A stretch of 64,000 bases of DNA from an uncultured bacterium (lineage in GTDB: Bacteria; Patescibacteriota; Minisyncoccia; Phycocordibacterales; GWA1-40-21), in contig CAWDSG010000002.1 in NCBI GenBank assembly GCA_963804975.1, positions 133,288 to 197,287 on the forward strand, given 5' to 3'. Below the pieces are notes generated by a model. The model did not search any database, was not told the DNA's origin, and saw nothing but the letters and a program-made list of their open reading frames with translations. This document shows positions 40,960 to 42,492 of this stretch, in pieces. A program made the translations under genes and the position numbers. The first letter of the stretch is position 1, and the number at the start of each line of letters is the position of its first letter.

Positions 40960-42492
40960 AGAGTTTGATCCTAGCTCAGGATGAACGCTGGCGACGTGGA
41001 TAGGGCATGCAAGTCAAGGGGTCCGCAAGGGCACCGGCAGACGAGATAGTATAAAATAGGTAACGAACCCAAAAGTCAGGAATAGCTCGTCGAAAGACGG
41101 GGTAATACTTGATGGCCCGTGCGTGAACTTTGAACAGAAATTATTTTTGTGTTTAAAGTTTGCGTACGGTAAAGATTTATCGCTTTTGGATCGGCCTGTT
41201 CGGTATCAGCTAGTTGGTAGGGTAATGGCCTACCAAGGCAATGACGCCTAGGGGAGGTGAGAGCCTGACCCCCATCGATGGAACTGAGACACGGTCCATA
41301 CACCTACGGGTGGCTGCAGTCGAGAATATTTGACAATGGAGGAAACTCTGATCAAGCGACGTCGCGTGGAGGATGAAGTGCTTCGGCACGTAAACTCCTT
41401 TTGTAGAATAGTAAGTTTTGAACATTCTAAGAATAAGAGGTTGCTAAACTCGTGCCAGCAGCAGCGGTAATACGAGTGCCTCAAGCGTTATCCGGAATTA
41501 TTGGGCGTAAAGGGTATGTAGGTGGTTTTGTTAGTCTTCTGTTAAAACTCTGGGCTTAACCCAGAATCTGCAGGGGAAACGGCAAGACTTTAGAGTATGC
41601 GAGGGGTCTGTGGAACTCTAGGTGTAGCAGTGAAATGCGTTGATATCTAGGGGAACACCAAAAGCGAAAGCAGCAGACTGGAGCACTACTGACACTGAAA
41701 TACGAAAGCGTGGGTAGCGAATGGGATTAGATACCCCAGTAGTCCACGCCCTAAACGATGTTCTCTAGGTTTTCGGAGTATCGACCCTCTGAGAGCCACA
41801 GCTAACGCGTTAAGAGAACCGCCTGGGTAGTACGGCCGCAAGGCTAAAACTCAAAGGAATAGACGGGGACTCGCACAAGCAGAGGATCATGTGGTTTAAT
41901 TCGATGGTAAACGAAGAACCTTACCAGGGTTTGAAACCTAACTGAAGTTAGGAAGAAATTTTTAACGTCTCACAAGGACAGTCAGGCAGGTGATGCATGG
42001 CCGTCGTCAGTTCGTGGTTTGAATTGTTCCCTTAAGTGGGGTAACGAACGCAACCCTCGTTGTCTGTTATATATGTCAGACGAGACTGCCCTCCTTTTTG
42101 TTCGCAAATAAAAAATTTGTTGGCAAGAAGGAGGGAGGAAGGCGAGGATGACGCCAGGTCAGCATGTCCCTTTGATACCCTGGGCTACACACGTGATACA
42201 ATGGCACATACAACGCGATGCGACGCAGTAATGCTGAGCTAACCGTAATAAAGTGTGCCTAAGTTCGGATTGAGGTCTGCAACTCGACCTCATGAAGTTG
42301 GATTTGCTAGTAATCACAGGTCAGCCATACTGTGGTGAATACGTTCTCGAGTCTTGTACTCACCGCCCGTCAACTCAAGGGAGCCAGGAATACCCGAAAC
42401 CAGCGCTAGTCGCTGTCTACGGTAAGTTTGGTGACAGGGAGTAAGTCGTAACAAGGCACGGGTAGCGGAAGCTGCTCGTGGAATTTTTCAAA
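40960..42492 (+). rRNA. rrs: 16S rRNA (unlinked from 23S-5S); 3' terminus lacks CCUCC
   Basis: 5' AGAGTTTGATCCTAGCTCAGGATGAACGCTGGCG. Conserved GTGCCAGCAGCAGCGGTAATAC, GGATTAGATACCC, GTCGTAACAAGG. h45 CGGGTAGCGGAAGCTGCTCG, then TGGAATTTTTCAAA instead of TGGATCACCTCCTT. Confidence 0.9.

What the first reader, a model, noticed from the sequence alone, without database searches (positions are those of the whole stretch)
40960..42492. 16S rRNA is unlinked from 23S-5S and its 3' end lacks the CCUCC anti-Shine-Dalgarno; genes in the window are SD-less
16S lies ~11 kb downstream of 5S, after ftsW, pilin, glycosyltransferase, secDF and toxin-antitoxin genes. It has its own near-consensus promoter (40575-40602) and a long terminator-like hairpin (42662-42702). 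After helix 45 (CGGGUAGC-GGAA-GCUGCUCG) the sequence is UGGAAUUUUUCAAA where bacteria normally have UGGAUCACCUCCUUA. No CACCUCC occurs within 300 nt downstream. Consistent with this, essentially every confidently called gene (rpsS through secY, RT, ndk, and others) has an A/T-only upstream region with no GGAGG. The few ORFs with strong SDs (30687-30785; 43537-43779; the DGR target) are in anomalous or foreign-looking DNA.
Basis: seen in the sequence. Interest (0 to 1): 0.55.

Follow-up and report, generated by a model that had tools for sequence, protein, structure and literature searches.

The report
16S rRNA without anti-Shine-Dalgarno (Paceibacteria)
This is a real 16S rRNA gene from a tiny-genome "candidate phyla radiation" bacterium that has lost the sequence ribosomes normally use to dock onto mRNAs, and its genes have lost the matching signal, but the whole lineage is like this and the loss was published in 2022.

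Summary
The 16S gene (40953-42493) is full length. Helix 45 is intact and is followed by GAAUUUUUCAAAU where bacteria normally have GAUCACCUCCUUA. No CCTCC occurs up to or beyond the pre-rRNA processing stem and terminator. None of 58 called genes has GGAG, GAGG or AGGA at -20 to -3, against 51% in an E. coli control run with the same crude caller. The 16S lies 11 kb from the 23S-5S pair and has its own conserved promoter, boxA-like element, leader-trailer stem and terminator.

This is a clade trait, not an oddity of one genome. All 22 species representatives and 120 metagenome contigs that share this helix 45 lack the anti-SD, and every one with enough flank is unlinked from 23S. They are labelled Paceibacteria/Parcubacteria. 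Loss of the anti-SD in about half of Parcubacteria is published (Tsurumaki 2022). So are unlinked rRNA genes in Patescibacteria (Brewer 2019) and the rule that genomes without an anti-SD lack SDs (Amin 2018).

The new tail does not pair with gene upstream regions. Start regions are A-rich, G-poor and unstructured. About a fifth of genes carry a -10-like box 6-11 nt before the ATG, which suggests leaderless mRNAs. I rate the novelty as already known and the interest as low to moderate.

The parts
40953..42493 (+). 16S rRNA gene, full length by the model. The mature 3' end has not been mapped.
   Evidence: Rfam RF00177, 1316.8 bits, model positions 1-1533.
42457..42480 (+). Helix 45 (CACGGGUAGC-GGAA-GCUGCUCGUG): 10 bp and a GGAA loop, intact.
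   Evidence: cmscan alignment. MFE fold. Identical in all 142 anti-SD-less relatives.
42481..42493 (+). 3' tail GAAUUUUUCAAAU in place of GAUCACCUCCUUA. It is a decayed homologue of the anti-SD tail. The first 11 nt are predicted to be single-stranded.
   Evidence: Column-by-column alignment. The tail is invariant in 11 relatives of 86-94% 16S identity. Clade consensus is GA[AU][UC]A[AU]UUCAA, with G1, A2 and U8 invariant in 23/23.
40575..40602 (+). Sigma-70-type promoter of the 16S unit (TTGACT-16-TATAAT).
   Evidence: 11/12 match to consensus. CTTGACT-N17-GTATAAT is conserved at the same place in 5 relatives.
40661..40675 (+). BoxB-like G+C-rich hairpin in the leader.
   Evidence: One search lists it (CCCGCAGCTTGCGGG). 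The role is inferred from its position just before the boxA-like element.
40705..40717 (+). BoxA-like antitermination element TGTTCCTTAACAA.
   Evidence: Read from the sequence. It is conserved as GCGTTCTTTTACAACAAAATA in relatives. The resemblance to the boxA consensus TGCTCTTTAACAA is from my own knowledge.
40901..40928 (+). 5' strand of the pre-16S processing stem.
   Evidence: 27 of 28 positions are complementary to 42629-42656, with an exact run of 18 (shuffled maximum 12). Conserved in relatives.
42492..42628 (+). Structured 3' trailer: four or five hairpins between the tail and the processing stem. It contains no CCUCC.
   Evidence: MFE -49 kcal/mol, z = -4.9. RNAalifold on 11 relatives: 20 of 48 pairs keep pairing through changes on both sides. 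No Rfam family matches.
42629..42656 (+). 3' strand of the pre-16S processing stem.
   Evidence: ACGGAACAAAAGAAAGAACAAT is conserved in relatives.
42662..42703 (+). Intrinsic-terminator-like hairpin that closes the 16S unit.
   Evidence: 19-bp stem, dG -25 kcal/mol, z = -9.1. Most relatives have an equivalent hairpin plus T-run at the same place with different sequence.
25127..29540 (+). 23S rRNA gene. Its true 3' end is near 29540, not 28105, because two introns interrupt domain VI (about 28062-28460 and about 28528-29318).
   Evidence: Rfam. BLAST to E. coli 23S: positions 553-2593 align to 25940-28061 and 2657-2890 align to 29319-29536. The middle exon was read by eye.
29690..29799 (+). 5S rRNA gene.
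   Evidence: Rfam RF00001, 70.7 bits.
43136..43305 (+). tRNA-Ile(GAU) and tRNA-Leu(CAG), 640 nt downstream of 16S behind the terminator. The tRNA-Ile is possibly a relic of the ancestral 16S-tRNA-23S spacer.
   Evidence: ARAGORN and Rfam. The relic reading is inference.

Best explanation
The window comes from a member of the class Paceibacteria (Parcubacteria, candidate phyla radiation / Patescibacteria).

The 16S gene is a self-contained transcription unit. It has a promoter, boxB-like and boxA-like elements, a 28-bp leader-trailer processing stem and a terminator. It lies 11 kb from the 23S-5S pair.

The 13 nt after helix 45 are a decayed homologue of the normal tail. The anti-SD cytosines have been replaced (CACCUCC has become UUUUUCA), so no Shine-Dalgarno helix can form. 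The genes correspondingly carry no SD.

Start-codon selection must therefore use SD-independent cues. These steps are inferred, not shown:
(i) Start regions are A-rich, G-poor and almost free of structure, which gives the 30S subunit direct access to the AUG.
(ii) In roughly one gene in five, a -10 promoter box sits 6-11 nt before the ATG. This implies leaderless or near-leaderless mRNAs, which 70S ribosomes would be expected to start on directly, as described for leaderless mRNAs in other bacteria.
(iii) Many operon-internal genes have spacers of 0-15 nt, which would allow re-initiation or coupling.

The state is ancient and clade-wide and was reported at clade level by Tsurumaki et al. 2022.
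For: Shown here:
- The tail aligns column by column with the canonical tail and lacks CCUCC. There is no CCTCC in 42400-43400.
- All 22 GTDB species representatives with the same helix 45 lack the anti-SD. They are labelled Paceibacteria, Paceibacterota, Nomurabacteria, Zambryskibacteria or Parcubacteria. The nearest 16S is 85.5% identical.
- Ten contigs of the 120-contig metagenome sample carry the window's 14-nt tail GAATTTTTCAAATC, and 8 of these have long 16S alignments (731-1552 nt) at 90-94% identity.
- Of 137 relatives, 0 have CCTCC within 20 nt of helix 45. Nine have it within 150 nt, against 7.6 expected by chance.
- 0 of 58 window genes have an SD 4-mer, against 51% in the E. coli control. 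For 13 orthologous r-protein and secY genes, duplex dG with the canonical anti-SD is -4.4 to -10.3 in E. coli and +1.3 to -3.8 here.
- In relatives, 10.4% of 338 genes have an SD 4-mer, against 11.4% at random positions.
- S5 is followed directly by L15 with no uL30 gene between them, a CPR hallmark.
- The 16S unit's parts are conserved in relatives.
- All 63 anti-SD-less loci with at least 2.5 kb of downstream flank are unlinked from 23S.
- 40-nt windows at the ATG fold at -1.8 kcal/mol, against about -5 inside genes (p = 1e-8).
- A -10-like hexamer ends at -6 to -11 in 20.3% of 498 relatives' genes, against 6.6 +/- 1.1% in shuffles. In the window it is 24% against 13.7 +/- 4.4%. In E. coli it is 0%.

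Literature:
- PMC9297842: the anti-SD motif was detected in only 48% of Parcubacteria, and the lineages lacking it overlap the uL1-lacking group.
- PMC6107228: organisms without CCUCCU lack SDs.
- bioRxiv 10.1101/705046: unlinked rRNA genes in Patescibacteria.
Against: - The mature 3' end of the 16S is not mapped, and a conserved structured 140-nt trailer follows the tail.
- Only 64 kb of the genome is visible, so a second 16S copy cannot be excluded.
- The leaderless inference rests only on the position of -10-like hexamers with crude ORF-based start calls. In the window alone the excess is modest (z about 2.4).
- Anti-SD-bearing Magasanikbacteria loci also look SD-poor (14 genes). Loss of SD use may therefore predate the loss of the anti-SD rather than follow from it.
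- The comparison of anti-SD+ and anti-SD- CPR loci was underpowered (25 genes).
Confidence: 0.85

Rival explanations
1. The anti-SD is still present but has been displaced downstream by an unrecognised terminal insertion or intron. The 23S of this genome is interrupted in just this way.
For: The 23S in this window carries two introns that the covariance-model hit did not report as such. One archaeal locus in the genome scan (L119) does have an insertion after helix 45, with CACCTCC further downstream.
Against: No CCTCC occurs from helix 45 through the processing stem, the terminator and beyond (42400-43400). The 13-nt tail aligns position by position with the canonical tail, so it is the tail itself in mutated form. 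In 137 relatives CCTCC occurs downstream only at chance frequency and at no fixed position.
Confidence: 0.02
2. The SD/anti-SD pair has co-evolved to a new sequence. The new tail (AUUUUUC / UUCAA) would pair with an A-rich motif such as AAAAAU upstream of start codons.
For: Several r-protein genes end their leader with UAAAAAUCAAUC-AUG. AAAAAU is complementary to AUUUUU in the tail, at SD-like spacing. The tail is conserved in the clade.
Against: Duplex energy between each genome's own tail and the -22 to -3 region equals that of composition-matched shuffles (-2.22 against -2.23 kcal/mol, n = 487 genes, p = 0.96). It is no better than for the -70 to -51 region. In the window alone the values are -1.96 against -1.90. 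The k-mers enriched near starts look like -10 boxes, not like tail complements. Amin 2018 found no co-varying variant pairs in 128 organisms lacking an anti-SD.
Confidence: 0.03
3. The gene is a pseudogene, an assembly artefact, or one of two 16S copies, and the functional copy carries a normal anti-SD.
For: Only one window is visible. Amin 2018 describes Alteromonas taxa with two kinds of 16S tail.
Against: The covariance-model match is full length and high scoring, with intact helix 44, helix 45 and decoding-site sequence. The same tail is found in independent metagenome assemblies and is conserved while flanking hairpins diverge. The promoter, boxA-like element, processing stem and terminator are all conserved. 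The genes themselves have no SD. CPR genomes normally carry one rRNA copy (my own knowledge).
Confidence: 0.03
4. The conserved tail and structured trailer stay attached to the mature 16S as a 3' extension that takes over an mRNA-recruiting or platform role.
For: The 11-nt tail is invariant, and the trailer hairpins are conserved with covariation across relatives of 86-94% 16S identity. The distance from helix 45 to the processing stem is about 150 nt, against 33 nt in E. coli (E. coli figure from my own knowledge).
Against: The most conserved trailer hairpin (GCCUCAAUUGAGC) is present in only 3 of 22 genome loci and 19 of 112 metagenome loci of the anti-SD-less clade. It is therefore not a general replacement. 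Conserved trailers are equally expected for processing signals. There are no expression data.
Confidence: 0.07

Closest known systems
Anti-SD-less subgroup of Parcubacteria (Tsurumaki et al. 2022, RNA 28:1041, PMC9297842)
   Same: Same clade by 16S relatives. Same trait: CCUCCU is missing at the 16S 3' end. The paper also infers that no SD helix forms.
   Different: The paper reports motif detection rates only (48% in Parcubacteria) and a correlation with uL1 loss. It does not describe what the tail has become, SD use in genes, or how initiation works. uL1 status cannot be checked in this window.
Organisms lacking the anti-SD in Lim et al. 2012 and Amin et al. 2018 (PMC6107228): some Flavobacteriia, Mycoplasma, Candidatus Carsonella
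   Same: A 13-nt tail without CCUCCU goes with absence of SD motifs before genes. No compensating variant SD was found there or here.
   Different: Different phyla and independent losses. In this survey every sampled locus sharing this helix 45 lacks the anti-SD (22 species representatives at about 73-85% 16S identity to the window, plus 120 metagenome contigs), and Tsurumaki 2022 puts the loss in about half of Parcubacteria; the losses Amin 2018 lists are reported at genus level or as sporadic species.
Bacteroidia-type SD-independent initiation (anti-SD retained but not used; A-rich Kozak-like start context). From my own knowledge of Baez 2019 and Jha 2021; not checked here.
   Same: Genes lack SDs, and start regions are A-rich and unstructured.
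   Different: Bacteroidia keep the CCUCC sequence. Here it is gone.
Unlinked rRNA genes (Brewer et al. 2019, bioRxiv 10.1101/705046)
   Same: 16S is separated from 23S-5S. Patescibacteria are listed there as a clade with exclusively unlinked rRNA genes.
   Different: Nothing differs in kind. This study adds that the stand-alone 16S keeps a full set of rrn signals: promoter, boxA-like element, processing stem and terminator.
Leaderless-mRNA-rich bacteria such as Actinobacteria and Deinococcus (from my own knowledge)
   Same: A -10 box sits about 7-10 nt before the ATG in a sizeable fraction of genes.
   Different: Those phyla keep the anti-SD and use SDs on their leadered genes. Here no TSS data exist and the signal is purely positional.

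Membership tests
Anti-SD-less Parcubacteria/Paceibacteria 16S (Tsurumaki 2022) | No CCUCC(U) in the tail after helix 45 | tested here: met
   cmscan alignment and motif search.
Anti-SD-less Parcubacteria/Paceibacteria 16S (Tsurumaki 2022) | 16S groups with Parcubacteria/Paceibacteria | tested here: met
   Helix 45 is identical to that of 22 species representatives. Those with informative labels are Paceibacteria, Paceibacterota, Nomurabacteria, Zambryskibacteria, Parcubacteria or 'Patescibacteria group'; about ten carry an automatic 'uncultured Candidatus Saccharibacteria' label, which I take to be unreliable, and two are labelled only 'bacterium'. Best 16S identity is 85.5% (L103); other 16S matches among these loci are 73-83%. 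No formal phylogeny was made.
Anti-SD-less Parcubacteria/Paceibacteria 16S (Tsurumaki 2022) | Ribosomal protein uL1 is missing (a correlated trait in the paper) | not testable with these tools
   The rplK-rplA region is not in the window, and the rest of the genome could not be fetched.
Candidate phyla radiation / Patescibacteria | No uL30 gene between rpsE and rplO | tested here: met
   S5 (14508-15179) is followed by L15 (15301-15732) with a 121-nt gap and no ORF.
Candidate phyla radiation / Patescibacteria | rRNA genes carry insertions or introns, often with homing endonucleases (Brown 2015, from my own knowledge) | tested here: met
   The 23S has two introns, one carrying a LAGLIDADG ORF. 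The 16S has a 32-nt insertion.
Unlinked rRNA genes | More than 1.5 kb between 16S and 23S | tested here: met
   The 23S ends near 29540 and the 16S starts at 40953 on the same strand, in the order 23S-5S...16S. All 63 of 63 relatives are also unlinked.
SD-independent translation (genome-level) | No enrichment of anti-SD-complementary motifs at -20 to -3 | tested here: met
   0 of 58 genes here, against 9.6% at random positions. The E. coli positive control gives 51%.
Variant SD / anti-SD pair | Upstream regions are complementary to the organism's own tail beyond what composition explains | tested here: not met
   -2.22 against -2.23 kcal/mol in shuffles, n = 487 genes.
Leaderless mRNA usage | A -10 box placed so that transcription starts at or within a few nt of the AUG | tested here: inconclusive
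   Positional enrichment is 20.3% against 6.6% in relatives and 24% against 13.7% in the window. There are no TSS data.
Bacteroidia-type initiation | Anti-SD sequence retained in the 16S | tested here: not met
   The tail lacks CCUCC.

The most novel reading that the evidence does not exclude
In anti-SD-less Paceibacteria, translation initiation has been rebuilt around 5'-end-dependent (leaderless) starts and structure-free A-rich starts.

The retained, invariant 11-nt single-stranded tail (GAAYAUUUCAA, with G1, A2 and U8 fixed across the clade) would then serve a different, still unknown role. Candidates are a contact on the ribosomal platform or mRNA exit channel, or a processing determinant. 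The conserved structured trailer might stay attached with it.

Neither the leaderless signature nor the nature of the replacement tail appears in the papers I could search.
Probability: 0.3. Interest if true: 0.55.

Novelty: already known. Interest (0 to 1): 0.3.

Why it matters
- **Biology.** The window shows that the textbook SD/anti-SD mechanism is absent from this genome, and the survey of relatives shows the same state across its lineage. That lineage is a large, uncultured bacterial class, and Tsurumaki 2022 had already reported the loss at clade level.
- **Gene calling.** Gene callers that use SD motifs to place start codons will mis-set starts in these genomes.
- **16S primers and annotation.** Primers or annotation rules that expect ...GGATCACCTCCTT at the 16S 3' end will fail.
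- **rRNA coordinates.** Covariance-model coordinates can also mislead. The 23S end here is off by 1.4 kb because of introns.
- **What is new here.** The clade-level fact is published, so this adds only detail: what the tail has become, that it does not pair with leaders, and a positional hint of leaderless mRNAs.

Tried and rejected
1. **New SD complementary to the new tail.** Rejected. There is no excess complementarity over shuffles in the window or in 487 genes of the clade.
2. **Best-of-candidate-starts SD test with internal pseudo-starts as control.** The positive controls (high-GC anti-SD+ genomes) did not light up, so the test lacks power. I dropped it in favour of an E. coli control with the simple caller.
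3. **Anti-SD+ CPR against anti-SD- CPR.** Only 25 genes were available on the anti-SD+ side, so the result is inconclusive. By eye, Magasanikbacteria look SD-poor and Saccharimonadia SD-positive.
4. **Mini-hairpin UUC-loop-GAA directly after helix 45.** It is possible in many tails but only 3-4 A-U-rich pairs long, and it is absent in the GAUCAUUUA-type tails. In close relatives those bases belong to the single strand or to the base of hairpin T1. I did not pursue it.
5. **Trailer hairpin GCCUCAAUUGAGC as a general replacement for the anti-SD.** Rejected. It is present in only about 16% of anti-SD-less loci.
6. **Rfam matches in the trailer.** None reached significance.
7. **SD-bearing small ORFs as foreign DNA.** 4 of 44 is chance level.
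8. **First genome scan pattern.** The pattern (helix 45 top only) was too broad and mostly returned Actinomycetota and Chloroflexi. It still gave 22 relevant loci.
9. **Fetching the source contig through an encoded protein.** This returned only a 5.4-kb Logan contig without the 16S.
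Full report
**Observation**

Rfam finds one full-length bacterial 16S gene at 40953-42493 (1316.8 bits, model positions 1-1533). It also finds a 23S at 25127 onwards, a 5S at 29690-29799 and two tRNAs at 43136-43305.

In the covariance-model alignment of the 3' end, helix 44, the decoding-site sequence AAGUCGUAACAAGG and helix 45 (CACGGGUAGC-GGAA-GCUGCUCGUG, 42457-42480) are intact. The following 13 nt, GAAUUUUUCAAAU, align column by column with the consensus GAUcACCUCCUUu. 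The same is seen against E. coli rrsH. The tail is therefore neither deleted nor displaced. It is the ordinary tail with the anti-SD cytosines replaced (CACCUCC has become UUUUUCA).

No CCTCC, CACCTCC or GATCACC occurs anywhere in 42400-43400.

**The 16S is a self-contained transcription unit**

- The promoter TTGACT-16-TATAAT at 40575-40602 matches the consensus at 11 of 12 positions. It is conserved as CTTGACT-N17-GTATAAT in five relatives.
- The leader holds a G+C-rich hairpin (40661-40675) followed by TGTTCCTTAACAA (40705-40717). This resembles the boxA antitermination element (resemblance from my own knowledge) and is conserved in relatives.
- Leader 40901-40928 is complementary at 27 of 28 positions to trailer 42629-42656. 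The exact run is 18, against a shuffled maximum of 12. This is the usual pre-16S processing stem, and both strands are conserved in relatives.
- A 19-bp hairpin at 42662-42703 (dG -25 kcal/mol, z = -9) closes the unit. Most relatives have a different hairpin plus a T-run at the same place.
- The transcript is thus delimited, and it contains no CCUCC between helix 45 and the stem.

**Not an artefact: relatives**

A scan of one genome per GTDB species for the top of helix 45 returned 120 loci.

- All 22 loci that share the window's exact helix 45 lack CCTCC after it.
- Those with informative labels are Paceibacteria, Paceibacterota, Nomurabacteria, Zambryskibacteria, Parcubacteria or "Patescibacteria group". 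Some carry loose automatic "Saccharibacteria" labels.
- The nearest, L103, is 85.5% identical in 16S. The others are 73-83% identical.
- Magasanikbacteria (helix 45 CAUGGG...) and Saccharimonadia keep GAUCACCUCCUU.
- The tail consensus in the anti-SD-less group is GA[AU][UC]A[AU]UUCAA. G1, A2 and U8 are invariant in 23 of 23 sequences.

A metagenome scan for GGAAYNTTTCAA after helix 45 hit its 120-contig limit.

- Ten contigs carry the window's 14-nt tail GAATTTTTCAAATC, and 8 of these have long 16S alignments (731-1552 nt) at 90-94% identity.
- In their alignment the tail is invariant, while the hairpin that follows has diverged completely.
- Among 137 anti-SD-less relatives with at least 150 nt of flank, none has CCTCC within 20 nt of helix 45. 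Nine have it within 150 nt, against 7.6 expected from composition, and at no fixed position.
- All 63 loci with at least 2.5 kb downstream lack a 23S there.

**SD-less genes**

I used a crude longest-ORF caller.

| Measure | This window | Control |
|---|---|---|
| Genes with GGAG, GAGG or AGGA at -20 to -3 | 0 of 58 | 9.6% at random window positions; 51% in a 49-kb E. coli region with the same caller (8% at random positions there) |
| Duplex dG with the canonical anti-SD, 13 orthologous r-protein and secY genes | +1.3 to -3.8 kcal/mol | -4.4 to -10.3 kcal/mol in E. coli |

- G falls to 3-10% and A rises to about 50-60% in the last 11 nt before the ATG.
- In relatives, 10.4% of 338 genes have an SD 4-mer, against 11.4% at random positions.
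Most SD-plus-start hits in the window lie inside real genes.

**How initiation probably works (inferred)**

1. *No new pairing.* Each genome's own tail pairs with the -22 to -3 region no better than with shuffled versions (-2.22 against -2.23 kcal/mol, n = 487, p = 0.96). This matches Amin 2018, who found no co-varying variant pairs among 128 organisms lacking an anti-SD.
2. *Accessibility.* 40-nt windows centred on the ATG fold at -1.8 kcal/mol, against about -5 inside genes (p = 1e-8). G+C drops to 26% there.
3. *Leaderless or near-leaderless mRNAs.* The k-mers enriched just before starts are pieces of -10 boxes, such as TATA, TAAT, CAATA and TGCTA. A TATAAT-like hexamer ends at -6 to -11 in 20.3% of 498 relatives' genes, against 6.6 +/- 1.1% in shuffles. 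In the window the figures are 24% against 13.7 +/- 4.4%. In E. coli the figure is 0%. Window examples are 21140, 33353(-), 35979 and 45910.
4. *Coupling.* 16 of 39 same-strand gene junctions in the window are overlaps or spacers of 15 nt or less, which would allow re-initiation.

None of these steps has expression data behind it.

**What follows the tail**

- The first 11 nt (GAAUUUUUCAA) are predicted to be single-stranded.
- Four to five hairpins then fill 42492-42628 (z = -4.9).
- Across 11 relatives, 20 of 48 predicted pairs keep pairing through changes on both sides.
- The most conserved hairpin (UUCAAUGCCUC-AAUU-GAGCAUUGAA) occurs in only 3 of 22 genome loci and 19 of 112 metagenome loci of the anti-SD-less clade, and in none of 90 anti-SD+ loci. 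It is a sub-lineage feature, not the general replacement for the anti-SD.
- No Rfam family matches.
- Whether any of this stays on the mature rRNA is unknown.

**Comparison with what is known**

- Tsurumaki et al. 2022 (PMC9297842) report that the anti-SD motif is detected in only 48% of Parcubacteria. They say the lineages lacking it overlap the uL1-lacking group and that SD helices are thought not to form there.
- Brewer et al. 2019 list Patescibacteria among clades with exclusively unlinked rRNA genes.
- Amin et al. 2018 show that organisms without CCUCCU generally lack SDs.
- CPR membership is supported here by the missing uL30 gene between rpsE and rplO and by introns in the 23S. uL1 could not be checked.
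- The searches for "Shine-Dalgarno" with Parcubacteria or Patescibacteria returned no further relevant paper. In the search that included "leaderless", none of the 15 papers listed contained that word.

**Verdict**

The observation and the interpretation are correct. The feature is a known trait of a large clade, and this window is a typical member. The modest additions are these:

- The tail is a decayed homologue that remains conserved.
- It does not pair with gene leaders.
- There is a positional signature of leaderless mRNAs.
- There is a hint from 14 genes that anti-SD-bearing Magasanikbacteria are already SD-poor, so SD use may have been lost first.

Noticed in passing
window 28062-29318 (within 23S, 25127 to about 29540): The 23S carries two introns that the whole-window Rfam hit hides; that hit reports the 23S as ending at 28105. 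The first intron, about 400 nt with no ORF, follows E. coli position 2593. The second, about 790 nt, sits inside the sarcin-ricin loop: AGUA|CGAGAGGACC, after position 2656. It encodes the LAGLIDADG endonuclease ORF 28653-29168. The 63-nt middle exon is at about 28461-28527.
   Followed up: partly
window 8787-8929, 10362-10543, 12130-12313, 23919-24037 (+): An intergenic module of about 180 nt is repeated four times. Each copy ends in ...TATATTCACTCTGTTCATTAAAAATCAATC-ATG, directly before rpsS, rplP, rplE and ndk. It splits the S10/spc ribosomal-protein operon into separate units. It may be a shared promoter or leader cassette.
   Followed up: partly
window 29778-29802, 29905-29922, 30544-30568: The 3' end of the 5S gene (GGAAAGTAGCTAAGCGCCGGAACTA) has two partial copies downstream. 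They flank a 159-aa ORF (30053-30532) with no Pfam match. This looks like an insertion next to 5S with duplication of the target.
   Followed up: partly
window 19125-19249, 19577-19701, 20109-21125: This looks like a diversity-generating retroelement. There is a reverse transcriptase (RVT_1) and a 125-nt repeat pair at 88% identity (template and variable repeat). It is followed by a 928-aa TraG/VirD4-like ATPase.
   Followed up: no
window 38368-38963: A mazE/mazF toxin-antitoxin pair lies 2 kb upstream of the 16S. In E. coli MazF has been reported to remove the anti-SD from 16S (my own knowledge; contested). Here there is no anti-SD to remove, so the adjacency is probably coincidence.
   Followed up: no
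window 14508-15732: rpsE is followed directly by rplO with no uL30 gene. The r-protein cluster in the window starts at rpsS. It is preceded by an IS200-like transposase and an LTD/PKD surface protein rather than by rpsJ-rplB.
   Followed up: partly
window 42791-43036, 43537-43779; minus-strand 30785-30687: Small ORFs of 81, 80 and 32 aa are preceded by good SD-like motifs (AGGAG, AAGGAG, GGAGGTG) in a genome that cannot use them. Their frequency is at chance level. None has a Pfam match; the 32-aa ORF was not tested.
   Followed up: partly
window 43136-43210: tRNA-Ile(GAU) is the tRNA that normally sits in the 16S-23S spacer. Here it lies 640 nt after the 16S, behind a terminator, a small ORF and a promoter-like site (42702-42730). 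It may be a relic of the ancestral linked operon.
   Followed up: no
L002, L020, L079 (Magasanikbacteria loci, anti-SD present): The 14 genes callable in these anti-SD-bearing Parcubacteria-group loci also have A/T-rich, SD-poor upstream regions. Saccharimonadia loci (L022, L043) show clear SD-like motifs.
   Followed up: partly
L119 (Thorarchaeota MAG), after helix 45: This 16S has an insertion directly after helix 45, with CACCTCC about 35 nt further downstream. The window does not show this.
   Followed up: no
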